Source of the DNA: Escherichia phage A4
Sequence record: ON286972
DNA length: 64,000 nucleotides
Strand: one strand, 5' to 3'
The translations under genes and the position numbers were made by a program. The notes under the pieces were generated by a model. The model was given only the letters and a program-made list of their open reading frames with translations. It had not been told where the DNA came from and searched no databases. This document shows, piece after piece, positions 8,073 through 55,306 of this stretch (positions are counted from its first letter, which is position 1; every line of letters begins with the position of its first letter).

Positions 8073-8073
8073 A

Positions 8074-13465: not shown

Positions 13466-13490
13466 CACCTCCTTCTGTGCATGATATAAT
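13462..13490 (+). promoter_or_regulatory. sigma70-like promoter (TTGACA-17-TATAAT)
   Basis: Consensus hexamers with 17-nt spacer upstream of 13522. Confidence 0.5.
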
Positions 13491-16212: not shown

Positions 16213-16221
16213 AGGTGCTAT

Positions 16222-16728
16222 ATGTCGAGGAAACTATCAGAACTAATAAAGTTCGCAAAGGATTGTCTTGATACAATAACTTATTTGTACGTTAATGAAG
16301 TTAATTTGCATAGATATTTCGCTATCCATCACAGTACTGAATCGTCTTTCAATATTCGTCACGGTGCTCATAGTATATATTTTCATACTAAAGCTGAAGA
16401 TCGTCTGGCTCATTCTATGTTTGAGAAAGGTAAAACAGACTATATTCTATTTCGTTCAGATGGTTCTGATATAAAATATATTTCACACCAAAGAGGAAAA
16501 GCACAATTTATTAATCATATACTTCCGTACATTACGGATTTAACGGATGAAAATTATTTCCAAAATTCATTAATTTACAATGACTCTGAACTTAAAGCTA
16601 TGTTTATTCTATCGTACTTTAAAAAATATAGTGAGTTTCAGAGAATTAGTTTTGAATTTGCTTCAATGAAGCACTTTATTAAACAGGTAAGGATTTTAAA
16701 AAATGCTGACAAACGAAACAATAGATAA
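16222..16728 (+). CDS. hypothetical protein, FQxS-motif paralog family
   Basis: Motif NYFQNSLIYNDSE. Confidence 0.55.
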   Translation: MSRKLSELIKFAKDCLDTITYLYVNEVNLHRYFAIHHSTESSFNIRHGAHSIYFHTKAEDRLAHSMFEKGKTDYILFRSDGSDIKYISHQRGKAQFINHILPYITDLTDENYFQNSLIYNDSELKAMFILSYFKKYSEFQRISFEFASMKHFIKQVRILKNADKRNNR

Positions 16729-37238: not shown

Positions 37239-37511
37239 ATGGATTATCGAGTACTGAATAGAACATATAAAGCTTTATACAAAACATATATTGAAAGTAA
37301 AGTACATAATCCTATCATTTATAAAAATCCAGTTTATATTATATGGAATGAATATTTTACAATGATTCAAAATTACTTTTACGCTAACGAAATCTTTATA
37401 GATGGTGAAATGCGTAAGCTAACACGCGTTGATAGTATAGGTGGTGAAATTGTGTTATTCTATACTGATTCTATTATTGGACAACAATCTATAAATTTAG
37501 AGATATTATAA
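37239..37511 (+). CDS. hypothetical small protein, YIGK-motif paralog family
   Basis: ~90-aa paralog; MDYRVLNRTYKALY. Confidence 0.5.
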   Translation: MDYRVLNRTYKALYKTYIESKVHNPIIYKNPVYIIWNEYFTMIQNYFYANEIFIDGEMRKLTRVDSIGGEIVLFYTDSIIGQQSINLEIL

Positions 37512-37777
37512 TGAATTATAAGGATTTACATTTCACCTATAAACTAACATTTTATATGTATCGTTACGCTGATAACAACTTCATGGATAATGCATTTTAT
37601 CATCGTTTGTGGAGTGATTATATAAATTCTTTACGTGAACATTTTATAGGTACTATAATTCAATACGAAGGTAAAACAGTAAAAATATTTCAAGTTGATA
37701 GTTACAACGGGGATCTATGCTTCAAGGGTAGAGATTCTAGTGATGGATTACATGAGATTTATATCTATGAATTATAA
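37511..37777 (+). CDS. hypothetical small protein, YIGK-motif paralog family
   Basis: MNYKDLHFTYKL..EHFIGTIIQYEGKTVKIFQVDS. Confidence 0.55.
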   Translation: MNYKDLHFTYKLTFYMYRYADNNFMDNAFYHRLWSDYINSLREHFIGTIIQYEGKTVKIFQVDSYNGDLCFKGRDSSDGLHEIYIYEL

Positions 37778-38042
37778 GGATTTACAATTCACGTACAAAA
37801 TTCTTCATGAACAATATGAACGTGGTGAAGGAATATTAACTTACGATGAACGAGATTTTTTTCTTACATTGTGGTGTGAATATTTGGCAATGATTAACGA
37901 GATTTTTGTTGATAAAGAATATATGATTGACGACATGACTGTACGTATTATCAGAATTAAAAGTTATAATGGAAGTCTTGTTGGAATTTACTATAACAAT
38001 GAAAAGGCGAAAAGCGGATTTGTTGATTTGGAGTACCTATGA
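37767..38042 (+). CDS. hypothetical small protein, YIGK-motif paralog family
   Basis: MNYKDLQFTYKIL; start adjusted to ATG 37767. Confidence 0.5.
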   Translation: MNYKDLQFTYKILHEQYERGEGILTYDERDFFLTLWCEYLAMINEIFVDKEYMIDDMTVRIIRIKSYNGSLVGIYYNNEKAKSGFVDLEYL

Positions 38043-38302
38043 ACTATAATGATTTACAATTCACGTATCAACTTTTATATGATGATATGAATAACGAACT
38101 AGGTTTCTATTATGAAGCACATAATAAAATATGGTCAAATTATCTATCTGAGATACAACATCATTTTATAGGACTTCCAATACGTAGAAATAATAAAAAC
38201 TATCGTTGTACTGATGTAGTAAGTCATAGAGGTAGGTTGCGTTTAGAATTCTACCGCAGAGACGGGGACTTCATTGGTATAAATTTACTGGATTTTAAAT
38301 GA
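38039..38302 (+). CDS. hypothetical small protein, YIGK-motif paralog family
   Basis: MNYNDLQFTYQLL..HHFIGLPI. Confidence 0.55.
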   Translation: MNYNDLQFTYQLLYDDMNNELGFYYEAHNKIWSNYLSEIQHHFIGLPIRRNNKNYRCTDVVSHRGRLRLEFYRRDGDFIGINLLDFK

Positions 38303-38586
38303 TGAAAAACAACTTAAAGGAAATACAAGTATTTTATAGATTCTTATACTTGTCATATGTAACAGATGAGTACTATGAAAGTGTATATTATTTTTTATGG
38401 CAACATTACCGTACTATAGTAAGAGATTTATATATAGGAAAATCTATCATATCCAATGGTGAAAAATGTACCTGTACTGATGTCGTTAGTTTTAATGGTT
38501 CTTTAACACTGTGTTTCATATGCGATAATAATAGTGGGTCATTTTCATTAAACGTATATCAGTTAGAAGGAATAAATTTTGAATAA
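38299..38586 (+). CDS. hypothetical small protein, YIGK-motif paralog family
   Basis: ..DLYIGKSIISNGEKCTCTDVVS. Confidence 0.55.
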   Translation: MMKNNLKEIQVFYRFLYLSYVTDEYYESVYYFLWQHYRTIVRDLYIGKSIISNGEKCTCTDVVSFNGSLTLCFICDNNSGSFSLNVYQLEGINFE

Positions 38587-42445: not shown

Positions 42446-42709
42446 ATGAATATCCAAGATAGATTGCAATTGTTGCACACACTTGAAGAAGCTGCTTTTG
42501 AACTTGTTAATAAAATTGCACAAGAACTCCCAAAAGGAACCAACGTTCGTGTTCGTGAAATGGATTATTTAACGGGAGAAATTGAAGAAAAAGTTCTAAC
42601 AGTGATCAAAGTAACATACTATGAATCAGAGTTATCAATTCAATGTAAGTCAGATAATGGTTACGTTTCCTACTATGGCACAGATGTAGATATAGAGGTA
42701 ATTAGATGA
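42446..42709 (+). CDS. hypothetical protein
   Basis: ATG 42446 just after upstream stop; 87 aa. Confidence 0.45.
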   Translation: MNIQDRLQLLHTLEEAAFELVNKIAQELPKGTNVRVREMDYLTGEIEEKVLTVIKVTYYESELSIQCKSDNGYVSYYGTDVDIEVIR

Positions 42710-43851
42710 GTAATTTACGAGAAATATACAATGATTTAATGGAACTATGTGAATCTAATGATGCATTTTTCTATATAGATCACACAAGCCCTGGTGGTGG
42801 TTTATACCGTGTATTCACCTATCGTCTGGCATCTTATACCGATTTCACAAATAAAAATGCACTAGAAACTCGTGGTTCTATGTGGGAAATCGATTCCAAC
42901 GGAATTATGATTCGTTGTGCAGCACGTACAATGAAAAAGTTCTTCAATGCATATGAAAACCCGTACACAATGTTCAGTACTGATACGACATGTGATGATA
43001 TTGCAGTTGTAATGCCTAAACTTGATGGTTCTATCATCAGCACATTCCGTGATAACGATGGTGAAATCCGTTGCAAATCACACACTTCGTTATCTTCTGA
43101 CCATGCTATTAACAGTACTCGACTTTTGAACGAGAACCAAAATCTCTATCAATACATTGATGAAGCAGACCGTTTGGGCTATACTGTGAATCTGGAATAC
43201 ACAAGCCCAGAGTATCGAATTGTGTTACCATATCAGGTGGAACAGTTATTTGTTCTTAACGTTCGTCATCGTATTAGTGGTGAGTTGTTATGCGGTAAAG
43301 CACTACGTGATAAGTTTCCATGCCTTTCACAGTACAGTACTAATATGACAGGTAATGACATTCATCATACATTCCCGATTATGCCTACATTTAAAGAGTC
43401 AATCGATAAAGTACGTTCTATGATTGACATTGAAGGTTTTGTGTGTATAATGAAAGATGGTACAATGTGCAAAATCAAAACTGACTGGTATTGCTCTTTG
43501 CATTTAACAAAAGATTCCATTCTTATTGATTCCCATTTATATGAAGCTGTACTGACTGGTGCAAGTGATGACTTAAAACAATTGTTCAGTACTGATACAT
43601 ATGCAATGGATAAGATATTAAGAATGGAACAATTGGTATTTTCGTGCTATAATGCTTTACAAGATGAGGTAGAAAGCTTCGTCCATGCATACAAGCACTT
43701 AGAGCGAAAGGAATTCGCTCAAAAGGTTCAGCAAGATTTACCTAATGTATTGAACCGACAAGGCTTGGCCTTTGCGTTGTACAATGGCAAAAGTGTCGAT
43801 TATAAAGAGACTTTACTAAAGTACTACAAAGATGTACTAAAGGATTTTTAG
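42706..43851 (+). CDS. rnlA: RNA ligase 1
   Basis: Collinear with T4 Rnl1 as recalled: N-terminal NDLMELCE, nucleotidyltransferase KxDG motif (KLDGS), EGFVCIMKDG..KIKTDWY, GASDDLK. Confidence 0.9.
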   Translation: MSNLREIYNDLMELCESNDAFFYIDHTSPGGGLYRVFTYRLASYTDFTNKNALETRGSMWEIDSNGIMIRCAARTMKKFFNAYENPYTMFSTDTTCDDIAVVMPKLDGSIISTFRDNDGEIRCKSHTSLSSDHAINSTRLLNENQNLYQYIDEADRLGYTVNLEYTSPEYRIVLPYQVEQLFVLNVRHRISGELLCGKALRDKFPCLSQYSTNMTGNDIHHTFPIMPTFKESIDKVRSMIDIEGFVCIMKDGTMCKIKTDWYCSLHLTKDSILIDSHLYEAVLTGASDDLKQLFSTDTYAMDKILRMEQLVFSCYNALQDEVESFVHAYKHLERKEFAQKVQQDLPNVLNRQGLAFALYNGKSVDYKETLLKYYKDVLKDF

Positions 43852-43880
43852 TACTAACTAGCCCAGCACAAGGAGAAGTG

Positions 43881-44135
43881 ATGGCTAAACCTAAGTATAA
43901 AAATGATGGTTCCCTTTCTCCTACTGAGTTCAGGAAAATACAACAAGAAATCGATGATTTACAGCACAAACGCTCAATGAAAGGTGTGAAGATTAGTAAG
44001 AAGCGAATCGAGAATACTTTTGGGTGTAGTAGTACTGAATATAAGAAGAAAAGGAAACCAAAGGATGTTAAGCCGAGAATACATGATGTAACTCGCTATA
44101 CATCGAAACGTGAAAATAAATTCGATCCACTATAA
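43881..44135 (+). CDS. hypothetical basic protein
   Basis: AGGAG RBS then ATG 43881; Lys/Arg-rich 84 aa. Confidence 0.5.
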   Translation: MAKPKYKNDGSLSPTEFRKIQQEIDDLQHKRSMKGVKISKKRIENTFGCSSTEYKKKRKPKDVKPRIHDVTRYTSKRENKFDPL

Positions 44136-44144
44136 GGAGTTCAT

Positions 44145-44381
44145 ATGAAAGTTGAAGTTCAGCATAGTATTGTTCAGGATATGTCAGTGGTTAAGTTTCT
44201 TTCTCTGAAAGATTACTTCAGATGTATCAAGTTCCTTGAAGAATCTCAATTACAGTGGACCCCCTTAAAGTACAGTTCATCCAATGACACTGCTAGTATT
44301 CGTTGTGATGAAGCTGTACTTGTAAAAATCTCCAAGCGATTTGGAGTTGGGAAATACAATGAAAAACAATCATTCAAGTGA
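44145..44381 (+). CDS. hypothetical protein
   Basis: ORF-track ORF with GGAG upstream. Confidence 0.45.
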   Translation: MKVEVQHSIVQDMSVVKFLSLKDYFRCIKFLEESQLQWTPLKYSSSNDTASIRCDEAVLVKISKRFGVGKYNEKQSFK

Positions 44382-44613
44382 TTTGTTATATTATAAAGTA
44401 CTATCAGAATGTTTGACGGATATATTGTACCGTGAGAGTAATACTCTACGTGCAAAATATATTAACAAAAGAGTACGTTATAAATCATCTTATGATGGGA
44501 TGAATGTTTATGGTAAAATCACTAATGTATATGTAGATGATGATTTTACATTGAATATCATTGTCGATAATTGTATTGATATCTCAATTGATGATATTAT
44601 TGAGGTAATCTAA
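44359..44613 (+). CDS. hypothetical small protein, YIGK-like
   Basis: ..RAKYINKRVRYKSS; start adjusted. Confidence 0.45.
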   Translation: MKNNHSSDLLYYKVLSECLTDILYRESNTLRAKYINKRVRYKSSYDGMNVYGKITNVYVDDDFTLNIIVDNCIDISIDDIIEVI

Positions 44614-44924
44614 TGAATAAAGCATTAAAAGAACTTAATAATTTAATGAATGCAGAAATTGAATTAACTAATACTATTTCTGAAATTGTTCATGATATGA
44701 TTACACAATACAAGAAATCACTCATTGGTAAGAAAGTTGAATGCTGGGATTACAACACTAAAACATGGTTCGAAACTATCATTAGTGATGTTAATGTTAA
44801 ATTTCATGTAGTTACTCATCACATTTCTGACGAGTGCTATGTAGAAGTAACTATAGGACACAACACGAGACATGAACGTTTTTCGTGGTACAATCTAAAG
44901 AATGTGAAATTTATTGAGGATTAA
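44613..44924 (+). CDS. hypothetical small protein, YIGK-motif paralog family
   Basis: ..YKKSLIGKKVECWDY. Confidence 0.5.
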   Translation: MNKALKELNNLMNAEIELTNTISEIVHDMITQYKKSLIGKKVECWDYNTKTWFETIISDVNVKFHVVTHHISDECYVEVTIGHNTRHERFSWYNLKNVKFIED

Positions 44925-45857
44925 ATGCCAACTATTACACTAACAGTTGGATTGCCAGGATGTGGTAAAACCACGTGGGCAGTGCAAGAAATTAAAAAAG
45001 CAAAGTCCAAGACTATCAACATCAATCGTGATGATATTCGAGAGTCTATGGCTGGGTCACATGATGCTTATAAATTCACTGATGCGAACGAGAAGTACGT
45101 AACTAATCAACAGTTCAGTGCAGCAAACGCAGCAGCAGCGAATGGATGGAACATTATTGTGTCCGATACGAACCTGAAACAAGGTTTTCGTGATGAATGG
45201 AAACGTTGGGCTAAAGATAATGGCTACGACTACAAAGAAAAGAACTTCTACGAAGATTTTGTACCGAATGAAGACCGTGGTGCAGATGTTCATGAATTCT
45301 TTAAGATTAAGGAATTCGTGAAGCTCTGTAAGAAACGCAACCTTCTTCGTGTGCGTTCAGTACAAGATGAAATCATTGACACTATGGCAGATACGTACTA
45401 TTATAGTAAGGCGATGCACATTGGTTACTATGGTAATGCACGTGAAGCTGCTATCATTGTTGATATCGACGGTACTCTTGCTCATAAGTGGGGACGTAAC
45501 CCGTTTGATGAAAGTACTGTCCTTCAGGATACACCAGATGAAGAAGTAATTCTGTCTGTCATTGCTGAGGCTGTTTTCCATAAGCGTAAGGTAATCGTCA
45601 TGAGTGGGCGTACTGAAGGGTGTCGTGCTGATACTGAACAGTGGCTTAAGAATTGGGGCATTCCCTACGATGTATTGTTAATGCGAGCTATCGATGATAA
45701 ACGTCCTGATGATGTTGTCAAATTCGAGTTGTATATGAATAACGTTGTTAATCATTACGATGTTAAGAAAGTATTTGATGACAGGGCCGCCGTTGTATTC
45801 ATGTGGCGTAAGCTACTAGGCTTGAAAGTATTTCAGGTGGAACCTGGACTATTTTGA
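44925..45857 (+). CDS. pseT: polynucleotide 5'-kinase/3'-phosphatase
   Basis: Walker A GLPGCGKTTWA, INRDD kinase motif, phosphatase DxDGT motif (VDIDGTLA), C-terminal KVFQVEPGLF collinear with T4 Pnk as recalled. Confidence 0.9.
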   Translation: MPTITLTVGLPGCGKTTWAVQEIKKAKSKTININRDDIRESMAGSHDAYKFTDANEKYVTNQQFSAANAAAANGWNIIVSDTNLKQGFRDEWKRWAKDNGYDYKEKNFYEDFVPNEDRGADVHEFFKIKEFVKLCKKRNLLRVRSVQDEIIDTMADTYYYSKAMHIGYYGNAREAAIIVDIDGTLAHKWGRNPFDESTVLQDTPDEEVILSVIAEAVFHKRKVIVMSGRTEGCRADTEQWLKNWGIPYDVLLMRAIDDKRPDDVVKFELYMNNVVNHYDVKKVFDDRAAVVFMWRKLLGLKVFQVEPGLF

Positions 45858-45865
45858 TTATTACA

Positions 45866-45895
45866 AAGGGATCAGTACTGATCCCTTTTCTTTTA
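45866..45895 (+). terminator. rho-independent terminator
   Basis: Palindrome AAAGGGATCAGT/ACTGATCCCTTT followed by a T-run. Confidence 0.6.
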
Positions 45896-45909: not shown

Positions 45910-46170
45910 ATGGATAATAGTTATGATGTACATTTCAAACAATGCCAGTTGGTTTTACACTCCCTAATGGAAGAGTTGCGAATCAAGTACATAGGCAAAA
46001 TTGCTACATGTTTATCAACTGGAAGACGTGGGCAAATTGTAGAGATTTATTATTCTCCACTTAGTGATGAAATTAAAATAAAAGCTAAAATATTCCTAAC
46101 TGGATCTAACAATTTCTTGGGTGAACATATGGTAAAAATTATCTCTGAATTATCGATAACGGATGAATAA
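45910..46170 (+). CDS. hypothetical small protein, YIGK-motif paralog family
   Basis: ..LRIKYIGKIATCLSTGRRGQIVEIYY. Confidence 0.5.
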   Translation: MDNSYDVHFKQCQLVLHSLMEELRIKYIGKIATCLSTGRRGQIVEIYYSPLSDEIKIKAKIFLTGSNNFLGEHMVKIISELSITDE

Positions 46171-46172
46171 AC

Positions 46173-46439
46173 ATGAATATTAATATAGATTTCCAATTTG
46201 TTAATTCACATATTCAAGTACTGAAAAATTTAGTAAAGCAACTATCAGAAAAATATAAAGATACATATGTTAAATGTGTTTATGATACAAGTGACTGGGA
46301 ACGCATTATTAAAATTGATTCAGTATATCTTGATACTAACAATAATATAGTTGTATCTGGCGTTGATATGTATGGGCATAGATACCAATTCACAACGCGA
46401 GCAACAATAACTACAGTGGATGGATATGAATACGAATGA
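46173..46439 (+). CDS. hypothetical small protein, YIGK-like
   Basis: ..LSEKYKDTYVKCVYD. Confidence 0.45.
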   Translation: MNINIDFQFVNSHIQVLKNLVKQLSEKYKDTYVKCVYDTSDWERIIKIDSVYLDTNNNIVVSGVDMYGHRYQFTTRATITTVDGYEYE

Positions 46440-46725
46440 ATTCCAAGCATTATTGAAAACATTATATCTTCTTAAAGAAGAATCTCTTGCAATGTATAAT
46501 GAAAAACAATACAAGTTTGAAGAACAACTCATTCATTTTCATGATGAATATCTTGCCTTTTTGAATAAAAAATACTCAAATGTTCAGTGCAAATATCGAG
46601 GTAGTGATGTTATTATTACCGAAATAGAATCAAGTACTTACGGATATCCATACCTTTGTTGCAAATATATCCCAAGTGATATAACATTTCGCTCAAGAAT
46701 ATATTCGAGGTTTATTTTTTCATGA
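46426..46725 (+). CDS. hypothetical small protein, YIGK-like
   Basis: ..FLNKKYSNVQCKYRGSDVIITEIE; start adjusted. Confidence 0.45.
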   Translation: MNTNEFQALLKTLYLLKEESLAMYNEKQYKFEEQLIHFHDEYLAFLNKKYSNVQCKYRGSDVIITEIESSTYGYPYLCCKYIPSDITFRSRIYSRFIFS

Positions 46726-47003
46726 ATAATGATTCATTGAAGTTTTTTTATTATCATTATCGTATTTTACGCAGTTTATATTTTTCAGAATCCGATGAAA
46801 GATTACTAACATCATTATCAGTACTGATGGATAATTACGAGAACGAATTGTCTAAATTGGTTTTTGGTGTCAATGTTCTAGATGATACCGATTTAACATG
46901 GACAATTATTGAAGTGGCGACCTGGAATGGTAATATTTTGTACAGGTGCGAACGAGCAGGTTTTTTATGGGATGCCACATATGACGAAATTAGAATTGTA
47001 TGA
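46722..47003 (+). CDS. hypothetical small protein, YIGK-like
   Basis: ..LSKLVFGVNVLDD. Confidence 0.45.
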   Translation: MNNDSLKFFYYHYRILRSLYFSESDERLLTSLSVLMDNYENELSKLVFGVNVLDDTDLTWTIIEVATWNGNILYRCERAGFLWDATYDEIRIV

Positions 47004-47280
47004 CAGGCAAGTGAAATTGATAAGAGATACTCGTCGTTTCTTTCATACTCAATTAGTAGATCCATGTTATGATATTTCCGATTTCCTTGAAACCTATCTC
47101 CTTGATCTAACTACACCACTGCTTAAAAAATACGTAGGCACAAAAGCTATATATCTTGGAAGAGAAGTTGAAATTACCAACATATCATATTCTTATGGGG
47201 CATACATGTATACGGCAAAATCTGATAATGGACAAAGATATTATGCAATACGATCAAGAGAACTTACGATTATTGGATAG
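46981..47280 (+). CDS. hypothetical small protein, YIGK-like
   Basis: ..LLKKYVGTKAIYLGREVEITN; start adjusted. Confidence 0.45.
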   Translation: MTKLELYDRQVKLIRDTRRFFHTQLVDPCYDISDFLETYLLDLTTPLLKKYVGTKAIYLGREVEITNISYSYGAYMYTAKSDNGQRYYAIRSRELTIIG

Positions 47281-47572
47281 GCATCTTGCTATTCTTATCG
47301 ACCTTGTGATGGAAAGTGATGTAAAAATTTTTGAAAGTAGATTTCTTGAGGATTATAAAACTGAATTGCAAGAACTGTACAAAGGTAAAAAAGTATTACT
47401 TAGTACTGGTGACTATGGTAAAATTGAGTACGTGTATTATGAATGGAAAAAGGTTATATATTTTATAAAAACCAAAATAAAATACCAAAATAAAACAAGA
47501 ACCTATAAAGCATATTACGATTCAAATGAGATAGAGATTATATATGACCAACACGTTAATAACAAAAAGTGA
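47243..47572 (+). CDS. hypothetical small protein, YIGK-like
   Basis: ..LQELYKGKKVLLSTGDYGKIEY; start adjusted. Confidence 0.45.
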   Translation: MQYDQENLRLLDRHLAILIDLVMESDVKIFESRFLEDYKTELQELYKGKKVLLSTGDYGKIEYVYYEWKKVIYFIKTKIKYQNKTRTYKAYYDSNEIEIIYDQHVNNKK

Positions 47573-47867
47573 ATTAGATTATTTGAATTATATAAACAGA
47601 TACTTTCTGATTCTATATAATATACTTCTTGAAGAACAATGCACTAAATCAAACCATCAGTTATATAACTATATTAACTGTATAATTAGTGAAATATATG
47701 AATCATTGGAAAAGAGATTTAAGTACAGAACTATTAAGTGCGAAGATGATATTGTATATATTCATGGTGTTTTTGGTACAGGATATGGAATATTCGTTGA
47801 TTATAAAATACACCCATTTGATCCGTACATAGAAAATAGTATGTACATAGAAGAGATTGAACTATGA
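47544..47867 (+). CDS. hypothetical small protein, YIGK-like
   Basis: ..LEKRFKYRTIKCEDD. Confidence 0.45.
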   Translation: MTNTLITKSELDYLNYINRYFLILYNILLEEQCTKSNHQLYNYINCIISEIYESLEKRFKYRTIKCEDDIVYIHGVFGTGYGIFVDYKIHPFDPYIENSMYIEEIEL

Positions 47868-48181
47868 CACAAGAAGAATATAATAAATTAATAATGTACG
47901 AGAATCATTTTAATTATTGTCTGAAATGGTTATTGTACATTGATAACGTTGAGATGGATATGTACAGAAAAGAGGTGAATAAACGTGTTAAAGATTTCTA
48001 TTACGAATTGACTGATCTTTTTTATAATAATGTAGTATATGAAGCAAATACCAGTCGTGATTATGACCTTTATATCAAGCAAATATGGGGTACTGACTAC
48101 GGTCTGATGATTGATTGCAGTACTGGTCCTAATATAGACAGACCCAGTACTACATTGTATCTGGATGAGATTTTCATATGA
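47864..48181 (+). CDS. hypothetical small protein (array member)
   Basis: ORF in array, ATGA overlap. Confidence 0.45.
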   Translation: MTQEEYNKLIMYENHFNYCLKWLLYIDNVEMDMYRKEVNKRVKDFYYELTDLFYNNVVYEANTSRDYDLYIKQIWGTDYGLMIDCSTGPNIDRPSTTLYLDEIFI

Positions 48182-48480
48182 ATGAACTATTACTTTGTCA
48201 TAAAACATACATTATGCTATTCAGAACGTGCCATGATATGCGAATTGAAGGTATACTAGACTACCCAACTATGATGATTAACTTCAGGGTGTTAATGGAT
48301 TCATATTCACAATCTGTCATTGATGCATTTGAAGGTAGAGAAATAAAGTTCAAAAATGCCAGGACAAATAATGAGCTATGTGATACAATTAAATCAGTGG
48401 GGATTTCGGTTCCAAATGTGTACGTAATCCCATTGATGTACGGAAGAGTAGTATCCACTAACGAAATTATTAGTATATGA
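48178..48480 (+). CDS. hypothetical small protein (array member)
   Basis: ORF in array. Confidence 0.45.
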   Translation: MNELLLCHKTYIMLFRTCHDMRIEGILDYPTMMINFRVLMDSYSQSVIDAFEGREIKFKNARTNNELCDTIKSVGISVPNVYVIPLMYGRVVSTNEIISI

Positions 48481-48776
48481 TTAAAATATTATATGAAGCA
48501 GAAGAAACATATAAACTTCTGTGGGAAACTTTTATTTTTGACAAATACTATAATAGAACTGAATGGTTAGAGGTAAGTAAAATATATCTTCAAATTTTAA
48601 ATGATTATTTTTGTCCGTTCGTTGCTGAATGTAAAAATAATCCAATTGAAGAAATTAATATAATCGAAATAGTAGATGGGTTTGGTGCGTGGTTGATATA
48701 CCAAGACAACTATCACTTTTCTAATTATATCGAAGATATCGGTAAAATAATTGTAATTAAAGGAGTCATACTATGA
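48477..48776 (+). CDS. hypothetical small protein (array member)
   Basis: ORF in array. Confidence 0.45.
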   Translation: MIKILYEAEETYKLLWETFIFDKYYNRTEWLEVSKIYLQILNDYFCPFVAECKNNPIEEINIIEIVDGFGAWLIYQDNYHFSNYIEDIGKIIVIKGVIL

Positions 48777-49378
48777 TTTATGCACTATACGTACTATACG
48801 TACTTGGTCTGGTTATTGGTTGGTTTTTGGCAAAATCTTACAACCGTAATGCACTGGCATACACAGTATTTGGTATTATTTTTACGCCAGTACTAGAACT
48901 AGGTTTACTCATTATTATGGGTCGCCGTGACATGACACCAGTCATTGACGATAATCGTGATAAAGCAGTACATGATGTACCCGTTTTTGAAGGATATACG
49001 CCAACTTTAACAGTTGATGACGTTTACATTGATGGTGCTGAAGAAGTTAAATCAGTTCAGGAAGAAGTTGAAGAAGTTCCAGTTAAAGAAGAACCACAAC
49101 CAAAAGCACCAACAACTAAAACAAAAGCAAAAACTTCTAAGAAAACGAAAGGTCGCAAGACTAGCACTAAAAATACCAAAAAAACCAGTACAACTCGCAA
49201 AAGCACTAAAACTGATAAGGAAGCATCTTCCAGTACTGATGATGGTACAAGCACTGTTCTACTGACAGCAGCAACAACTGCCGCAATTATCAGTACTTCA
49301 TCCTATAGCGACTCATCTTCCTCTTATGATAGTGGCTCTTGTGATAGTTCAAGCTCAAGTTCAGGAAGCTGTGATTAA
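48773..49378 (+). CDS. membrane-anchored low-complexity protein (acidic, K/T-rich and S/C-rich segments)
   Basis: Two N-terminal hydrophobic helices, then EEVKSVQEEVEEVPVKEEP, TKTKAKTSKKTKGRKTSTK, and SSSYDSGSCDSSSSSSGSCD. Confidence 0.5.
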   Translation: MIYALYVLYVLGLVIGWFLAKSYNRNALAYTVFGIIFTPVLELGLLIIMGRRDMTPVIDDNRDKAVHDVPVFEGYTPTLTVDDVYIDGAEEVKSVQEEVEEVPVKEEPQPKAPTTKTKAKTSKKTKGRKTSTKNTKKTSTTRKSTKTDKEASSSTDDGTSTVLLTAATTAAIISTSSYSDSSSSYDSGSCDSSSSSSGSCD

Positions 49379-49722
49379 TGGTTCCGTTATCATCTGAACT
49401 AAGGTACTTCGAATCTCTCCTTGATCTTCAATCAGAATTCGTTAGTGCCTTAAAAAATAAATTAATAGGCAAAAAAGTAAAATTCACTCAAGAGTATATT
49501 GACCACATCAATAAGGCTAAGGAGGATGAAGTAGATTCTGACTGGATTTATTGTGATGATGAAGCTTCTCATATCAACGAAAATACAGTTATGTTTATTA
49601 CTTTGTTGCGAGTAAAGAATTCATCAATCTATGTTGATGTGGAATATGAAAATCCAAAAAGTTCTGAATGGTACGGATTCACTTACCGTTTAGATCGTTT
49701 AGAACTAATAGAAGAGGAATAA
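49378..49722 (+). CDS. hypothetical small protein, YIGK-motif paralog family
   Basis: ..LKNKLIGKKVKFTQEY. Confidence 0.5.
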   Translation: MVPLSSELRYFESLLDLQSEFVSALKNKLIGKKVKFTQEYIDHINKAKEDEVDSDWIYCDDEASHINENTVMFITLLRVKNSSIYVDVEYENPKSSEWYGFTYRLDRLELIEEE

Positions 49723-49965
49723 ATGATTTTATTTTTTGCTTTGTATGGTGTAGGAGTACTGAGTACATTTTTGAGTACTTTTCTTATCATCAATTGGGGT
49801 TCTTTTAAAGATACCCCTACCACAATGATTAATATTAGTACCTGCTCTATGTTATCAGTACTGTGGCCTGTGTCGTTGGTGTATCTTTTCATTTCAATCT
49901 GTAAAGATTTTTACGATACACTAACAAAATTCAAGAAGAAGAAACATGACAAAGACGGAAATTGA
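49723..49965 (+). CDS. small membrane protein
   Basis: 80 aa, two or three hydrophobic helices, basic C-terminus. Confidence 0.45.
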   Translation: MILFFALYGVGVLSTFLSTFLIINWGSFKDTPTTMINISTCSMLSVLWPVSLVYLFISICKDFYDTLTKFKKKKHDKDGN

Positions 49966-50200
49966 ACAGTTAAAGATGTTACAATCGTTATCTGATGATT
50001 TTGTCCAACGTGCTAAGCACAAATATATTGGTCAAGAAATTCTTCTTAAACACTCCAGAGGTTGGCAAAAAATATGCATAAGAGATATGGGAACATATCA
50101 TGGTGATGTGCGATATTACGTAGATTGCTATGTTAATGACCAAATTGCCAATACTCAAGTTGTCACCTATGATAAAATTATATGGATTAAAGAACAATGA
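49946..50200 (+). CDS. hypothetical small protein, YIGK-motif paralog family
   Basis: ..RAKHKYIGQEILLKH. Confidence 0.5.
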   Translation: MTKTEIEQLKMLQSLSDDFVQRAKHKYIGQEILLKHSRGWQKICIRDMGTYHGDVRYYVDCYVNDQIANTQVVTYDKIIWIKEQ

Positions 50201-50940
50201 AACATTTCTTAGAAGTAACAGTTCCTGATGAAAAAGATTTGTATATAGTAGGAGACATTCACGGTAATGCAAAACTATGGGAACATACCAAGAAAGAATT
50301 TGGTATTACTCCTGAAGATTATGTATTCAGTTTAGGCGATTTAATTGACAGAGGTGAGCAAAGTGCTCACCTTTTGTTTGAGTTTTTATTCGCTGAGAAT
50401 CGATATATGATCATGGGCAATCATGAATCGATGTGTATTGATTCTGCAACTCATCGTGACTGGTATCATTGCTGGACACAGAATGGGGGCGATAAGTTCC
50501 TGGAAGAAGTTGGTGTATCAGGAGTGGAATTCTTCCGTCAGTACTTGGACCAGCTACCTATGATTATCCAAATCAATCACAGAGGACTCAAGATTGGTCT
50601 TGTACATGCAGGTGTAGATCTGAAGTACAATGACTGGAATAAGTTCATTACTGGGACAAAATCAATGTCCAGTGATACAATTGAGTCATGCCTATGGGAC
50701 AGAAAGACATTTGATTTCTGTAAAGCCAACAACGTCTTTAATGCATCACGTATTACCAACGTAGATTATGTACTTAGTGGGCATACTGCCGTGTTTGATC
50801 CCCTCATTTATGGTAACCGTATCTGGATTGACAGTCAGTTTCTTACTGGTGATTTGACTATTGCTACCCCACAAGGTGGTAAGATGCGTTATTTGCGTAA
50901 AGAAAAAGACGAATATTCATTTAGTCGATTCAAAAGGTAA
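50197..50940 (+). CDS. Ser/Thr protein phosphatase-like metallophosphoesterase
   Basis: GDIHG, GDLIDRG and GNHE calcineurin-like motifs. Confidence 0.75.
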   Translation: MKHFLEVTVPDEKDLYIVGDIHGNAKLWEHTKKEFGITPEDYVFSLGDLIDRGEQSAHLLFEFLFAENRYMIMGNHESMCIDSATHRDWYHCWTQNGGDKFLEEVGVSGVEFFRQYLDQLPMIIQINHRGLKIGLVHAGVDLKYNDWNKFITGTKSMSSDTIESCLWDRKTFDFCKANNVFNASRITNVDYVLSGHTAVFDPLIYGNRIWIDSQFLTGDLTIATPQGGKMRYLRKEKDEYSFSRFKR

Positions 50941-50945
50941 TTATT

Positions 50946-51224
50946 ATGCATGACATGATTGATAGTGCATTAACCGAATTTAACTTTTTTAAAAAATCAC
51001 TCGATGCAATAATCAATGATACCAACCAACAAATGAAAGACCATTTAAGTGATAAATTGGTTGGTCGTTGGGTTGAGCTACCATATATAGATGGAACTAC
51101 TGTTGGTGTGATTCATAGAATTGTAACAATTCATGAAGTGAAGGTGTATGTTGAAATTCTGGTTGACAATGAAACTAACAAATGTTTTGTACAATTAAGT
51201 ACTGAAGATTTAACTTTTTTATAA
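50946..51224 (+). CDS. hypothetical small protein, YIGK-like
   Basis: ..LSDKLVGRWVELPYIDG. Confidence 0.45.
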   Translation: MHDMIDSALTEFNFFKKSLDAIINDTNQQMKDHLSDKLVGRWVELPYIDGTTVGVIHRIVTIHEVKVYVEILVDNETNKCFVQLSTEDLTFL

Positions 51225-53076: not shown

Positions 53077-54495
53077 ATGAGCATTTTAGCAATTCTGGAA
53101 CAAATCAAAAAGACTTCAAGTACACTTGGTAAGAAAGCAATCCTTGAAGAAAACAAAAACAATGAAACACTCAAAAAAGTACTGAAATATACGCTAGACC
53201 CTACTATCGTAAGTGGCTATAAGAAGCTACCAGACGCTGCTGACGTGTATCAACATATGACGTTAGATGAAGCTATTGATAAGCTAGAATGCATCTATAA
53301 GCGTGGTGTGACGGGTAATACAGGGCGTGATTTCATTGCTTCAGTACTAGGTGCTGTTCCTGAAGATGACCAGGAAGTTCTCCGTAAAATGCTCACGAAG
53401 AACCTTGATTGTGGTATTCAGGAAAAGAACTGTAATGATGTATTCGGTAAAGGCTTCATTAAAGATGAACCTTATATGCGTTGTTCATTGATTGACAAGA
53501 AAACTGCTAAGAACATCAACTTCAAAGATTATGGTTATGCCGTTGCTGAAGTTAAGATGGATGGTCAGTACTTGAACCACGTTGTTATCAATGCATCATT
53601 AACATCCACTTCCCGTAATGGTAAGATTTATGACTTCCTCGGTTGTCGTGATGCTGAAATGGCTGGTCTTGCTCATCATATCCAACGTACAGATGAACGT
53701 TTCAGTAGTGGTGTAGTCTTTATGGGCGAGGGTTTAGTACTGGATACTGATGGGGAAACTATTCTTCCACGTACAACTGGTAACGGCATCATTCAGAAAG
53801 CTGGTAAGGATACTATCACCCAAAACGAAGCAATGCGTACTGTATTTGTACTATGGGATGTAGTGCCATACGATGCATATTGTGATGGTATCTGGGATGT
53901 AAAACGTAAGGAACGACGCGAGATTCTCGAAGGTGCAATCAATGCATTAGGTAGTGAATTCGTGCGTATGGTTGGATATCGTAAGGTGAAGGATCTCAAA
54001 GAAGCCTTTGCTTACAACTCTGAACTCATGAGTTCCGGTGAAGAAGGTTCAGTACTGAAATGTGAAGATGGTATCTGGAAATCTCATACTTCTCCTAAGC
54101 AGTTGAAAATGAAATTGAAAATGCAACTGGACTTGCGTATTGTTGGTTTCAATGAAGGTGAAGGTAAGCGTAAAGGTATGCTTGGTTCTTTACAACTGGA
54201 AAGTGCTTGTGGTACACTAAAAGTAAGCGTAGGAACAGGCATTAAAGAGAAAGATGCTGAATGGACATTTAAAACCATTTGGGAAAGAATGCAAGAACTC
54301 ATTGGTAAAGTTGTTACAATTGAGTGCAATGACGTAGTATATGATAAGCGTACTGGTGAACCGTCACTATTCTTACCAGTGTTTATTGAATTTAGATTTG
54401 ACAAAAACACTTGTGACGATTATACTCGTATCTTAGAAATTCGCGATAGTGCAGTTGAGGTCTTCTCAAACAGTATTATTGAATCACTTGGCTAA
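53077..54495 (+). CDS. 30: ATP-dependent DNA ligase
   Basis: N-terminal ILEQIKKTSSTLGKKAILEENKNNETLKKV resembles T4 gp30 as recalled; adenylation KxDG motif (KMDGQ); C-terminal LFLPVFIEFRFDK. Confidence 0.9.
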   Translation: MSILAILEQIKKTSSTLGKKAILEENKNNETLKKVLKYTLDPTIVSGYKKLPDAADVYQHMTLDEAIDKLECIYKRGVTGNTGRDFIASVLGAVPEDDQEVLRKMLTKNLDCGIQEKNCNDVFGKGFIKDEPYMRCSLIDKKTAKNINFKDYGYAVAEVKMDGQYLNHVVINASLTSTSRNGKIYDFLGCRDAEMAGLAHHIQRTDERFSSGVVFMGEGLVLDTDGETILPRTTGNGIIQKAGKDTITQNEAMRTVFVLWDVVPYDAYCDGIWDVKRKERREILEGAINALGSEFVRMVGYRKVKDLKEAFAYNSELMSSGEEGSVLKCEDGIWKSHTSPKQLKMKLKMQLDLRIVGFNEGEGKRKGMLGSLQLESACGTLKVSVGTGIKEKDAEWTFKTIWERMQELIGKVVTIECNDVVYDKRTGEPSLFLPVFIEFRFDKNTCDDYTRILEIRDSAVEVFSNSIIESLG

Positions 54496-54514: not shown

Positions 54515-55306
54515 ATGAAATTTGTCGTAACATCTGATGTGCACGGTGGCACTGATTACCTCCACAGTGGTGATTACAGTGACACAGTACTGATCATTGC
54601 TGGTGACTTTGATGAAGTTAAACGCAGCCGTTATCGTACTGGTATCGAATCACTGTGTAAGCAGTTCAAGAATGTAGTACTGGTTCCTGGCAACCACGAG
54701 TACTACGGTTCGAACATTTACAAAACGCATCAAGTACTGTCCGATATACAAGATGAGTTTCCTAATTTCATCTTTTTGCAAAACAAATTTGTATGGCTGG
54801 ATGGTGTTTTGCTCGTTGGGAGTACTCTGTGGACAGACTTTGACAAAGGTAATTCCATGACGAAGTTTGATGCTCGTCAGAAGATGAACGATTACAAACA
54901 CATCCGTCATGGAACAACATCCGAGCCTTGGCGTAAGAAACTGACACCAGAAGATACTGAGTTCATGCATCACAAAGATAAACAATTTATCAAAAATTCA
55001 GTTGACACAGTACGCTTAATGCAGGATAATGATTTCAAGGTCATCGTGATTACCCATCACGCACCGAGTTTTCAAAGTGTTTCACCAAAATATAAAAACG
55101 ATTCACTGAATGGTTGTTACTGTTCAGACATGGATCAGTACATTGAAGATTTGGGTGCTGATGTTTGGATTCATGGTCATGTTCATAGTAGCTTTGATTA
55201 CCACATCGGTAAGACACGTATCATTTGTAATCCAAGAGGTTACGAATCTTATAGTGGAGCTTGTGAGAATTTCGATTACAATCCTAAATTGGTATTCGAA
55301 ATCTAA
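54515..55306 (+). CDS. calcineurin-like metallophosphoesterase
   Basis: SDVHGG, AGDFDE, GNHEYYG, ITHHAP and GHVH motifs; ATG 54515 after GGAGG RBS. Confidence 0.7.
   Translation: MKFVVTSDVHGGTDYLHSGDYSDTVLIIAGDFDEVKRSRYRTGIESLCKQFKNVVLVPGNHEYYGSNIYKTHQVLSDIQDEFPNFIFLQNKFVWLDGVLLVGSTLWTDFDKGNSMTKFDARQKMNDYKHIRHGTTSEPWRKKLTPEDTEFMHHKDKQFIKNSVDTVRLMQDNDFKVIVITHHAPSFQSVSPKYKNDSLNGCYCSDMDQYIEDLGADVWIHGHVHSSFDYHIGKTRIICNPRGYESYSGACENFDYNPKLVFEI

What the first reader, a model, noticed from the sequence alone, without database searches (positions are those of the whole stretch)
42706..45857. Rnl1 plus Pnk tRNA-repair pair, separated by four small ORFs
RNA ligase 1 and polynucleotide kinase/phosphatase together form the T4 system that heals and seals tRNAs cut by host anticodon nucleases. 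Here the two genes are conserved but separated by small ORFs (43881..44924), two of them YIGK-family members. No Alc-like protein was recognised between them.
Basis: established knowledge. Interest (0 to 1): 0.35.

Follow-up and report, generated by a model that had tools for sequence, protein, structure and literature searches.

The report
Jumbo-phage RNA ligase and kinase-phosphatase pair
This is the ordinary, already-annotated RNA-repair gene pair (RNA ligase 1 plus polynucleotide kinase-phosphatase) of a PBECO4/RaK2-type jumbo coliphage, laid out as in phage T4; its only unusual features are one altered ligase motif and two conserved small genes of unknown function between the enzymes.

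Summary
ORF 42706-43851 is a T4-RnlA-family RNA ligase (NCBIfam equivalog 284.7 bits vs cut-off 242.25; T4 Rnl1 structure E=8e-56). ORF 44925-45857 is a bifunctional kinase/HAD-phosphatase Pnkp (HAD_PNKP 5e-42; T4 Pnkp structure 3e-36). KLDGS and DIDGT are present, and every Pnkp catalytic residue is invariant.

The window is a new relative (~86% nt) of the PBECO4/121Q/RaK2 jumbo phages, whose records already annotate these genes as rnlA and pseT.

"Separated by four small ORFs" is not a departure from T4, which has rnlA-alc-pseT.3-pseT.2-pseT.1-pseT. Only the contents of the slots differ: no Alc or PseT.1-3 relative exists anywhere in the window.

The "YIGK-family" label is weakly supported for ORF4 and not demonstrated for ORF3.

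Two small new points:
- The whole jumbo-phage Rnl1 clade replaces the basic motif Ia residue (T4 Lys119) with His/Gln/Asn. The window has His126.
- Two intervening ORFs, a basic 85-aa protein and a 78-aa α/β protein, are conserved inside the cassette across the clade and are found nowhere else.

Verdict: a known system and a new member, of low interest.

The parts
42706..43851 (+). rnlA-like gene: RNA ligase 1 (381 aa), with an N-terminal adenylyltransferase domain and a C-terminal helical Rnl1 domain
   Evidence: Pfam RNA_lig_T4_1 + T4_Rnl1_C; PDB T4 Rnl1 E~1e-55, 39% identity; NCBIfam equivalog TIGR02308 above cut-off; phrog_562 3e-106
43015..43032 (+). Rnl1 motif I, PKLDGS; Lys105 is the predicted AMP-attachment lysine (= T4 Lys99)
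   Evidence: Aligned to T4 K99-E-D-G-S; invariant in 87/87 homologues
43075..43086 (+). Rnl1 motif Ia region, K-S-H-T: Lys124 and Ser125 are kept, but the basic residue (T4 Lys119) is His126
   Evidence: Alignment A4: Lys in 41 T4-like sequences, His/Gln/Asn (30/8/8) in all 46 jumbo-clade sequences
43432..43479 (+). Rnl1 motifs IV (EGFVC) and V (MCKIK): Glu243, Gly244, Lys256 and Lys258 correspond to T4 Glu227, Gly228, Lys240 and Lys242
   Evidence: Invariant in 87/87
43510..43806 (+). Rnl1 C-terminal domain, the tRNA-specificity module in T4 Rnl1
   Evidence: Pfam T4_Rnl1_C, aa 269-367, 55.8 bits vs cut-off 27; role in T4 stated in PMC6379707
43878..44135 (+). ORF1: very basic 85-aa protein (pI 10.1, 24 Lys+Arg), unknown function, conserved in the cassette across Rak2-like phages
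   Evidence: phrog_15306 2e-41; 61 phage records, always beside pnk; Erwinia orthologue E=1e-24; preceded by AAGGAG
44145..44381 (+). ORF2: 78-aa protein with a ββαββα core and invariant H7, S8, Q11, D12, Y43-S44-S45, R53, E56; unknown function; the constant element between rnlA and pseT in the clade
   Evidence: phrog_14730 1e-46; 70 phage records; alignment A6; AlphaFold pLDDT 82; no significant PDB match; only clade members among 1.8e9 representatives
44359..44613 (+). ORF3: 84-aa lineage-specific extra ORF (90 aa from the TTG at 44341), absent from Turkey3 and all GenBank phages
   Evidence: DNA alignment with Turkey3; no tblastn match in 50,697 phage records; present in Logan contig ERR10789687_1861
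44613..44924 (+). ORF4: 103-aa protein with a long N-terminal helix and a small β-barrel; the LIGKKV motif sits at the junction. It is a weak member of a loose small-ORF family. Its stop is followed directly by the pnk ATG.
   Evidence: phrog_31355 3e-27; Turkey3 orthologue E=1e-21; AlphaFold pLDDT 85; weak Tudor/PWWP/Sm-like matches; junction sequence
44925..45857 (+). pseT-like gene: polynucleotide 5'-kinase / 3'-phosphatase (Pnkp, 310 aa)
   Evidence: Pfam HAD_PNKP 4.9e-42 + AAA_33 7e-14; PDB 1ltq 3e-36 and 4xrp 1e-29; phrog_505 1e-94
44949..44972 (+). Pnkp kinase P-loop GLPGCGKT (Lys15, Thr16). Asp36 and Arg39 lie at 45030-45041, and the lid KRNLLR with Arg142 (= T4 Arg126) at 45333-45350.
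   Evidence: Alignment A5: K15, D36 and R142 invariant in 76/76; residue roles from PMC3592404
45249..45314 (+). Clade-specific ~20-aa insertion in the kinase domain (YEDFVPNEDRGADVHEFFKIKE)
   Evidence: Present (17-20 extra residues) in all Rak2-like-clade Pnkps; absent from T4 and other distant homologues
45462..45476 (+). Pnkp phosphatase motif DIDGT: Asp180 is the nucleophile and Asp182 the acid/base (= T4 Asp165/Asp167)
   Evidence: Invariant in 76/76; roles from PMC3592404. Ser227, Arg229, Lys266 and Asp285/286 are also kept.
45865..45888 (+). Intrinsic-terminator-like hairpin (10-bp stem) plus T-run, 8 nt after the pnk stop; the probable 3' end of the transcription unit
   Evidence: Scan; hairpin and T-run conserved in Turkey3 with a wobble-compatible change

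Best explanation
The locus is the RNA end-healing and end-sealing cassette of a Rak2-like (PBECO4/121Q-type) jumbo myovirus, inherited from the ancestor it shares with T4-like phages. By homology with T4 the mechanism would run as follows. [quoted passage not shown] The C-terminal HAD domain of Pnkp (Asp180 nucleophile, Asp182 acid/base, Mg2+ held by Asp180/Asp286) removes the cyclic or 3' phosphate. The N-terminal P-loop kinase (Lys15, Asp36 general base, Arg142) phosphorylates the 5'-OH. Rnl1 is adenylylated on Lys105, transfers AMP to the 5'-phosphate, and seals the break, with its C-terminal helical domain steering it to tRNA. What is shown here: homology, domain architecture, conservation of catalytic residues, same-strand linkage, and a conserved terminator after pnk. 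What is inferred: enzymatic activity, tRNA as the substrate, and the identity of the host nuclease. The four ORFs between the enzymes occupy the same slot as T4 alc/pseT.3/.2/.1 but are unrelated to them. Two (ORF1, ORF2) are clade-conserved with unknown function, and two (ORF3, ORF4) sit in a variable slot.
For: Rnl1 identity. Rnl1 essential residues invariant in 87/87: Tyr39, Arg56, Lys78, Lys105, Asp107, Gly108, Lys124, Glu164, Glu243, Gly244, Lys256, Lys258, Tyr262, Asp288. Pnkp identity. Pnkp catalytic residues invariant in 76/76: Lys15, Asp36, Arg142, Asp180, Asp182, Thr184, Arg191, Arg229, Asp262, Lys266, Asp285, Asp286, with their roles given in PMC3592404. The same rnlA -> small ORFs -> pseT order and orientation occurs in T4, Turkey3, Erwinia pEa_SNUABM_50 and RaK2, where the genes are already named rnlA and pseT. 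Tight junctions and a conserved terminator fit a single transcription unit. Jumbo-phage RNA repair by Rnl1 plus kinase-HAD enzymes is described in PMC7824862, and rnlA in the Rak2-like phage CBB in PMC5259590.
Against: The basic residue of motif Ia (T4 Lys119) is His126 here and His/Gln/Asn throughout the clade. The literature defines motif Ia as Ser-Lys/Arg, with the basic side chain contacting the ATP gamma-phosphate and/or the RNA 5'-phosphate (PMC1807946 and PMC6379707). From my recollection of Wang et al. 2003 (J Biol Chem 278:29454), which I could not retrieve, K119A abolishes overall ligation by T4 Rnl1. Full functional equivalence is therefore not guaranteed. No tRNA gene, anticodon-nuclease trigger or host information is in the window, so the tRNA-repair role rests on analogy alone. 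T4 Rnl1 also has a second, non-enzymatic role in tail-fibre attachment that cannot be excluded here.
Confidence: 0.78

Rival explanations
1. The cassette is a four-component RNA-repair module. The clade-conserved small proteins ORF1 (basic, possibly RNA-binding) and/or ORF2 (a compact α/β domain with an invariant polar patch) would work with Rnl1 and Pnkp, for example by recruiting substrate or compensating for the missing basic motif Ia residue. The precedent is bacterial Pnkp/Hen1 and Pnkp1-Rnl-Hen1, which are multi-protein complexes.
For: ORF1 and ORF2 lie between rnlA and pseT in 61 and 70 Rak2-like phage records and nowhere else. Across genera ORF2 is about as conserved (64-73%) as the enzymes (57-60%). 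The same clade carries the Lys->His/Gln/Asn change in motif Ia and a kinase-domain insertion. A multi-protein repair complex is documented in PMC4411300.
Against: Gene order in this region is conserved across the clade in general, so linkage may reflect only vertical inheritance. In T4 the equivalent slot holds functionally unrelated genes: a transcription inhibitor and spanins. All the co-occurring features trace to a single clade, that is, one evolutionary event, so there is no statistical support for co-evolution. ORF2 has no significant structural relative that would suggest RNA binding. Variable ORFs insert between these genes at different positions.
Confidence: 0.1
2. The jumbo-phage Rnl1 clade has diverged in function. 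Lacking the motif Ia lysine, it would be impaired in RNA 5'-adenylylation and would serve mainly another role: tail-fibre attachment like T4 gp63, or ligation of a different or pre-activated substrate. Pnkp would act independently on nucleic-acid ends.
For: His/Gln/Asn replaces the motif Ia basic residue in all 46 clade members, and the position varies within the clade, so a specific side chain is not strictly required. PHROG and GenBank annotations carry the 'tail fiber attachment catalyst' label.
Against: Every other adenylyltransferase residue, including those needed only for catalysis (Lys105, Asp107, Glu164, Glu243, Lys256, Lys258, Arg56, Lys78), is invariant across the clade. That is hard to explain without selection for ligase chemistry. 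His, Gln and Asn can still hydrogen-bond a phosphate. A structural comparison in PMC4797309 equates Arg54 of T4 Rnl1 (kept here as Arg56) with the motif Ia arginine of MthRnl. The conserved linkage to Pnkp also argues for a joint pathway.
Confidence: 0.08
3. The pair is an inactive remnant, or a chance juxtaposition of two unrelated enzymes.
For: None beyond the single motif Ia substitution.
Against: Both ORFs are intact and full length. All catalytic residues are conserved across more than 70 homologues. The linkage is conserved from T4 to four jumbo-phage genera.
Confidence: 0.02

Closest known systems
Bacteriophage T4 rnlA (gp63, Rnl1) - alc - pseT.3 - pseT.2 - pseT.1 - pseT (Pnkp) tRNA-repair locus
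   Same: Both enzymes are homologous (39% and 37% identity). They share the same domain architectures, strand and order, with four small ORFs between them. All Pnkp catalytic residues and all but one Rnl1 essential residue are conserved.
   Different: The intervening ORFs are unrelated: there is no Alc and no PseT.1-3/spanin homologue. Motif Ia Lys119 is His. The kinase domain carries a ~20-aa insertion. The phage is a ~350-kb Rak2-like jumbo phage rather than a Straboviridae member.
rnlA/pseT loci of Rak2-like jumbo phages (Asteriusvirus PBECO4/121Q/phAPEC6/Turkey3; Eneladusvirus pEa_SNUABM_50; Alcyoneusvirus RaK2; Cronobacter phage GAP32)
   Same: Direct orthologues: Rnl1 82-83% and Pnkp ~90% identical to Asteriusvirus, ~60% to the other genera. 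The cassette is the same, including ORF1 and ORF2, the motif Ia His/Gln/Asn, the kinase insertion and the terminator. These records already annotate the genes as RNA ligase and polynucleotide kinase.
   Different: The window has ~86% nucleotide identity to the nearest GenBank phage. It carries one extra ORF (ORF3, 44359-44613) that no GenBank phage has. ORF4 is strongly diverged from its Turkey3 orthologue.
Bacterial Pnkp/Hen1 and Pnkp1-Rnl-Hen1 RNA-repair complexes
   Same: Same healing-and-sealing logic. Pnkp1 (PDB 4xrp) aligns over the full length of the window Pnkp at E=1e-29.
   Different: There is no Hen1 methyltransferase. The ligase here is the Rnl1 type with the T4 C-domain, not an Rnl4-type ligase fused to or complexed with Pnkp (PMC4411300).

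Membership tests
T4 RnlA (Rnl1) family RNA ligase | Scores above the curated trusted cut-off of the family models | tested here: met
   NCBIfam TIGR02308 (equivalog) 284.7 bits vs 242.25; Pfam RNA_lig_T4_1 57.8 vs 28.3
T4 RnlA (Rnl1) family RNA ligase | Motif I lysine nucleophile (KxDGS) | tested here: met
   PKLDGS with Lys105 = T4 Lys99; invariant in 87/87
T4 RnlA (Rnl1) family RNA ligase | Rnl1-specific N-terminal subdomain residues contacting ATP (T4 Arg54, Lys75, Phe77) | tested here: met
   Arg56, Lys78 and Phe80 are conserved; roles stated in PMC6379707
T4 RnlA (Rnl1) family RNA ligase | Motif Ia Ser-Lys/Ser-Arg dipeptide (basic residue, T4 Lys119) | tested here: not met
   The window has Ser125-His126. 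All 46 jumbo-clade homologues have His/Gln/Asn and all 41 T4-like ones have Lys. The motif definition is from PMC1807946. Over half of the proteins that pass the family model lack the lysine, so this is a clade-level variant of a catalytic motif, not grounds for excluding homology-based membership. It does qualify the claim of identical mechanism.
T4 RnlA (Rnl1) family RNA ligase | Motifs III, IV and V (T4 Glu159; Glu227-Gly228; Lys240, Lys242) | tested here: met
   Glu164, Glu243-Gly244, Lys256 and Lys258 are invariant in 87/87
T4 RnlA (Rnl1) family RNA ligase | Distinctive all-helical C-terminal domain (tRNA specificity) | tested here: met
   Pfam T4_Rnl1_C 55.8 bits vs 27, aa 269-367
T4 RnlA (Rnl1) family RNA ligase | ATP-dependent sealing of 3'-OH/5'-PO4 RNA ends in a tRNA anticodon loop | not testable with these tools
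   Needs biochemistry
T4-type polynucleotide kinase-phosphatase (Pnkp) | Bipartite architecture: N-terminal P-loop kinase plus C-terminal DxDxT (HAD) phosphatase | tested here: met
   AAA_33 at aa 5-102 and HAD_PNKP at aa 175-310, 143.9 bits vs 27.6; both domains align to 1ltq
T4-type polynucleotide kinase-phosphatase (Pnkp) | Kinase active site: GxxGxGK[ST], general base Asp35, Arg38, Arg126 | tested here: met
   GLPGCGKT, Asp36, Arg39 and Arg142. A 3-sequence alignment placed Arg126 on Leu141, but the 76-sequence alignment places it on Arg142, invariant in 76/76. Roles from PMC3592404.
T4-type polynucleotide kinase-phosphatase (Pnkp) | Phosphatase active site: Asp165-x-Asp167-x-Thr, Ser211, Lys258, Asp277/Asp278, Arg176, Arg213 | tested here: met
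   DIDGT (Asp180, Asp182, Thr184), Ser227, Lys266, Asp285/286, Arg191 and Arg229, all conserved
T4-type polynucleotide kinase-phosphatase (Pnkp) | Homotetramer; 5'-kinase, 3'-phosphatase and 2',3'-cyclic phosphodiesterase activities | not testable with these tools
   Needs biochemistry. The clade-specific insertion at aa 109-130 lies in the kinase domain, and its effect is unknown.
T4 tRNA-repair (anti-PrrC) system | Rnl1 and Pnkp encoded together, co-oriented and closely linked in one phage genome | tested here: met
   1,073 bp apart on the + strand, with tight junctions and a terminator after pnk. T4 has the same order.
T4 tRNA-repair (anti-PrrC) system | Counteracts a host anticodon nuclease (PrrC cleaving tRNALys) during infection | not testable with these tools
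   No host data. There is no tRNA gene or Stp-like trigger in the window.
   No BLASTP hit at E<=1e-3 and no phmmer hit at E<=1, and no shared PHROG family. The ORF4 profile hits 49378 and 50946 at E=1e-3 to 3e-3, and the 45910 profile hits 47195 and ORF4 at 5e-4 to 2e-3. Shuffled controls give 0.12-0.17 such hits per search. ORF3 is recruited only in later iterations.
   The MAFFT consensus of 14 small ORFs is 'L..KYIGK.V'. ORF4 has LIGKKV and ORF3 has YINKRV. The ORF4 model has a helix at 2-37 followed by a β-barrel, pLDDT 85. The model was built on the presumed family alignment, so this is not independent evidence.

The most novel reading that the evidence does not exclude
Rak2-like jumbo phages carry a distinct variant of the T4 RNA-repair system. 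Their Rnl1 has dispensed with the canonical basic motif Ia residue (Ser-Lys -> Ser-His/Gln/Asn). Two clade-restricted small proteins embedded in the cassette, the highly basic ORF1 and the ββαββα protein ORF2 with an invariant polar patch, would be dedicated accessory subunits, for example for substrate recruitment or for supplying the missing 5'-phosphate contact. Together these would form a four-protein repair module.
Probability: 0.1. Interest if true: 0.55.

Novelty: new member of a known kind. Interest (0 to 1): 0.17.

Why it matters
As it stands, it matters little. The locus confirms that the T4 healing-and-sealing gene pair, and even its rnlA -> small ORFs -> pseT layout, is retained in a distant lineage of ~350-kb jumbo phages, which GenBank records and comparative papers already note. 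Two details could interest RNA-repair enzymologists. First, a whole natural clade of Rnl1 enzymes lacks the motif Ia lysine that is considered a signature of covalent nucleotidyltransferases, while keeping every other catalytic residue. This is a ready-made natural experiment on the role of that residue in RNA 5'-adenylylation. Second, two small proteins of unknown function are held inside the cassette across several genera, which makes them cheap candidates to test as repair cofactors or as counter-defence factors.

Tried and rejected
- **Apparent loss of Pnkp Arg126.** The 3-sequence MAFFT and pairwise HMMER alignments placed it on Leu141. I rejected this as an off-by-one artefact next to the insertion: the 76-sequence alignment puts it on Arg142, invariant in 76/76, within KRNLLR vs T4 KRNSKR.
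- **Homology of the four intervening ORFs to T4 Alc, PseT.1, PseT.2, PseT.3 or Cd.5.** All phmmer scores were <=3.5 bits among the locus ORFs, and nothing significant turned up across all 129 window proteins.
- **The perfect 12/12 sigma-70 consensus inside rnl1 (43424-43451) as an internal promoter for the downstream genes.** The -35 hexamer is the codons of catalytic motif IV (I-D-I-E-G), so it is conserved for protein reasons. The -10 is absent in Turkey3 and pEa50. I treat it as incidental.
- **ORF2 distant relatives.** The two large hits in the 1.8-billion-protein search are a 3,157-aa ankyrin-repeat protein and an internally repetitive 503-aa sequence, matched in six stretches each. These are repeat artefacts.
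- **ORF2 fold assignment.** No PDB match reached E<=0.001. The best matches (E=0.07-0.3, TM 0.4-0.5) were generic eIF1/SUI1, PII, ACT and KH two-layer α/β domains. BFVD returned only the RaK2 orthologue.
- **YIGK family by BLASTP, phmmer and shared PHROGs.** All negative.
- **Compensating basic residues for His126.** Only win74 (Arg/Lys in the clade, but also Arg71 in T4 itself) and win306 differ systematically. Without coordinates I could not test their proximity to the active site.
- **tRNA genes and Rfam families in the window.** None.
- **Literature.** I could not retrieve Wang et al. 2003 (JBC) or 2006 (RNA), so the statement that T4 K119A abolishes ligation rests on my memory.

Full report
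**1. Observation**

A 381-aa ORF lies at 42706-43851 and a 310-aa ORF at 44925-45857, both on the + strand. Four small + strand ORFs lie between them:
- ORF1, 43878/43881-44135
- ORF2, 44145-44381
- ORF3, 44341/44359-44613
- ORF4, 44613-44924

The window is AT-rich (~33% G+C). 124 of 128 simple gene calls lie on the + strand, which is typical of an early-gene block in a large phage.

**2. Identity of the two enzymes**

The first ORF is an Rnl1:
- Pfam RNA_lig_T4_1 (1.8e-15) plus the Rnl1-specific C-terminal domain T4_Rnl1_C (7e-15)
- the three solved T4 Rnl1 structures at E~1e-55
- phrog_562 at 3e-106
- NCBI's equivalog model TIGR02308 at 284.7 bits, against a cut-off of 242.25

The second ORF is a Pnkp:
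- Pfam HAD_PNKP (4.9e-42) and AAA_33 (7e-14)
- T4 Pnkp structure 1ltq (3e-36), and bacterial Pnkp1 4xrp over its full length (1e-29)
- phrog_505 at 1e-94

Identity to the T4 proteins is 39% and 37%.

**3. Source genome**

Megablast places the locus at 84-86% nucleotide identity to 35 jumbo coliphage and Salmonella phage genomes of the PBECO4/121Q/phAPEC6/Turkey3 type, 310-386 kb in size. Their records already label these genes RNA ligase and polynucleotide kinase.
- The nearest named Rnl1 is 83% identical. A 99%-identical copy exists only in a raw-read assembly, Logan ERR10789687, whose contig has the same gene layout.
- Rnl1 homologues occur in 1,616 of 50,697 phage records.
- RNA repair by Rnl1 plus kinase-HAD enzymes in jumbo phages is reviewed in PMC7824862.
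- rnlA in the Rak2-like phage CBB is noted in PMC5259590.

**4. Catalytic residues**

*Pnkp.* In a 76-sequence alignment, every residue that PMC3592404 names as catalytic is present, together with the other conserved active-site residues. These columns are invariant or nearly so:
- kinase: P-loop GLPGCGKT (Lys15), Asp36 (general base), Arg39, Arg142
- phosphatase: DIDGT (Asp180 nucleophile, Asp182 acid/base, Thr184), Ser227, Arg191, Arg229, Asp262, Lys266, Asp285/286

A shallow alignment had suggested that T4 Arg126 was replaced by Leu141. That was an off-by-one error next to a clade-specific ~20-aa insertion (aa 109-130).

*Rnl1.* In an 87-sequence alignment the following are invariant or nearly so: Tyr39, Arg56, Lys78, Phe80, Lys105 (motif I, PKLDGS), Asp107, Gly108, Lys124, Ser125, Glu164, Glu243-Gly244, Lys256, Lys258, Tyr262 and Asp288.

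There is one exception, the position of T4 Lys119, the basic residue of motif Ia:
- It is Lys in all 41 T4-like sequences (<=43% identical to the window).
- It is His (30), Gln (8) or Asn (8) in all 46 sequences of the jumbo-phage clade. The window has His126.
- From my memory of Wang et al. 2003, which I could not retrieve, K119A abolishes overall ligation by T4 Rnl1 without affecting steps 1 and 3.
- Against reading too much into this, PMC4797309 equates T4 Arg54 (kept here as Arg56), not Lys119, with the motif Ia arginine of an archaeal ligase. His, Gln and Asn can also still hydrogen-bond a phosphate.

I take this as a clade-level variant of a catalytic motif. It qualifies the claim of identical mechanism but does not overturn the functional assignment.

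**5. Gene order**

T4 itself has rnlA -> alc -> pseT.3 -> pseT.2 -> pseT.1 -> pseT on one strand, that is, four small ORFs between the enzymes. Related jumbo phages differ only in number:

| Phage | Small ORFs between rnlA and pseT |
|---|---|
| T4 | 4 |
| Turkey3 | 3 |
| Erwinia phage pEa_SNUABM_50 (Rnl1 60% identical) | 3 |
| RaK2 (genes annotated rnlA and pseT) | 5 |
| This window | 4 |

So the separation is the ancestral arrangement, not a peculiarity.

The contents of the slot are different, however. None of the window's four ORFs resembles Alc or PseT.1-3, and no such protein exists anywhere in the window. The absence of Alc fits with what the CBB paper reports for a Rak2-like relative, namely no genes for glycosylated hydroxymethylcytosine, which is the DNA context of Alc function in T4 (annotation).

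Gene junctions are tight: ATGA overlap at the upstream ORF/rnl1 junction, TAATG at ORF3/ORF4, and TAA followed directly by ATG at ORF4/pnk. A 10-bp-stem hairpin with a T-run lies 8 nt after the pnk stop and is conserved in Turkey3. This points to a single transcription unit ending after pnk.

**6. The intervening ORFs**

*ORF1* (85 aa, pI 10.1, 24 Lys+Arg; phrog_15306) and *ORF2* (78 aa; phrog_14730) are conserved in 61 and 70 phage records. All are Rak2-like jumbo phages, and in every listed record the two ORFs lie within a few hundred bases of each other next to pnk.

ORF2 in more detail:
- It is 64-73% identical across genera, at least as conserved as the enzymes.
- It has invariant polar residues: H7, S8, Q11, D12, Y43-S44-S45, R53, E56.
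- It folds confidently (pLDDT 82) as ββαββα.
- It has no significant structural relative in the PDB, and only its RaK2 orthologue in BFVD.
- An exhaustive HMMER scan of 1.8 billion representatives found only clade members plus two repeat-protein artefacts.

*ORF3* is an extra gene specific to this lineage. The DNA alignment with Turkey3 breaks just after the shared first ~13 codons. No GenBank phage has a match, but the Logan contig does.

*ORF4* is the diverged orthologue of Turkey3's third ORF (E=1e-21).

**7. The 'YIGK family'**

- All-against-all BLASTP and phmmer within the window do not link ORF3, ORF4 or the downstream run of 85-125-aa ORFs. The only exception is 47544/47864, the one pair that also shares a PHROG family, phrog_34190.
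- Profiles built from ORF4 or from 45910-46170 plus their Turkey3 orthologues give reciprocal weak hits at E=5e-4 to 3e-3. A shuffled control yields 0.12-0.17 such hits per search, so this is only modestly above chance.
- A MAFFT alignment of 14 such ORFs has the consensus 'L..KYIGK.V'.
- ORF4 modelled on that alignment gives a long helix followed by a small β-barrel (pLDDT 85). It has weak Tudor/PWWP/Sm-like matches (best E=0.04).

The family is plausible as a loose architectural class. Membership is weak for ORF4 and unproven for ORF3.

**8. Mechanism and verdict**

The best-supported reading is the classical one. [quoted passage not shown] Homology, architecture, residue conservation and linkage are shown here. 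Enzymatic activity, the substrate and the host nuclease are inferred.

The rival readings each have low probability:
- ORF1 and ORF2 are accessory subunits.
- The ligase clade has diverged in function.
- The pair is an inactive remnant or a chance juxtaposition.

The system is known and already annotated in close relatives, and the window adds a new member. Its modest points of interest are the clade-wide motif Ia substitution and the two conserved small proteins inside the cassette.

Noticed in passing
window 43075-43086 (Rnl1 aa 124-127, KSHT): The basic motif Ia residue (T4 Lys119) is His126 here. It is His/Gln/Asn in all 46 jumbo-phage-clade Rnl1 homologues and Lys in all 41 T4-like ones. 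Every other essential residue is invariant.
   Followed up: partly
window 44145-44381 (ORF2) and 43878-44135 (ORF1): Two small proteins are conserved between rnlA and pseT in 70 and 61 Rak2-like phage records and found nowhere else. ORF2 is a confidently folded ββαββα domain with an invariant polar patch and no structural relatives. ORF1 is extremely basic (pI 10.1).
   Followed up: yes
window 44359-44613 (ORF3): This is a lineage-specific extra ORF, inserted after the first ~13 codons of the ancestral third ORF. No GenBank phage has a homologue, but the ORF is present in Logan contig ERR10789687_1861.
   Followed up: yes
window 45249-45314 (Pnkp aa 109-130): The Pnkp kinase domain carries a clade-specific insertion of 17-20 residues. 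Two more distant homologues have a longer version of 32-41 extra residues. T4 and the other distant Pnkps lack it. Its effect on tetramerisation or substrate binding is unknown.
   Followed up: partly
window 45865-45888: A strong intrinsic-terminator-like hairpin plus T-run sits immediately after pnk and is conserved in phage Turkey3 with a wobble-compatible change.
   Followed up: yes
window 13462-13490, 35805-33 and 43424-43451 (all + strand): There are three perfect TTGACA-N16/17-TATAAT sigma-70 consensus sites, against 0.27 expected (0 of 100 shuffles reach 3). Two lie inside ORFs. For the one inside rnl1, the -35 is the motif IV codons and the -10 is not conserved in relatives.
   Followed up: partly
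window 7590-9439 plus 15263-16728; 37239-38586; several two- and three-member groups: BLASTP detects tandem arrays of paralogous genes: a 7-member family of ~150-168-aa proteins in two blocks, a 5-member family of ~87-99-aa proteins, and several pairs and triplets. Functions are unknown.
   Followed up: no
window 45910-48776 and 49378-51224: A long run of 85-125-aa ORFs shares an N-terminal helix, a [YL][IV]G[KT] motif and a β-rich C-terminus. Sequence links are weak. Only 47544-47867 and 47864-48181 are clearly related (phrog_34190).
   Followed up: partly
window 50197-50940, 53077-54495, 54515-55306, 56155-56850: Downstream of the cassette lie a NinI-like Ser/Thr metallophosphatase, an ATP-dependent DNA ligase (phrog_114, 2e-117), a second metallophosphoesterase and a ClpP-like protease.
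   Followed up: no
window 60245-62413 (- strand): A 722-aa protein made of at least seven Big_2 Ig-like repeats (Pfam 6e-118) is one of only four minus-strand gene calls. It marks a switch of coding strand and GC skew near 60 kb.
   Followed up: no
L004 (Xanthomonas phage Xoo-sp13) 4001-7634: In this more distant jumbo phage the Rnl1 homologue follows rIIA-rIIB. Downstream come two small ORFs, an M23 peptidase and an unannotated 291-aa ORF that might be a Pnkp. This was not tested.
   Followed up: no
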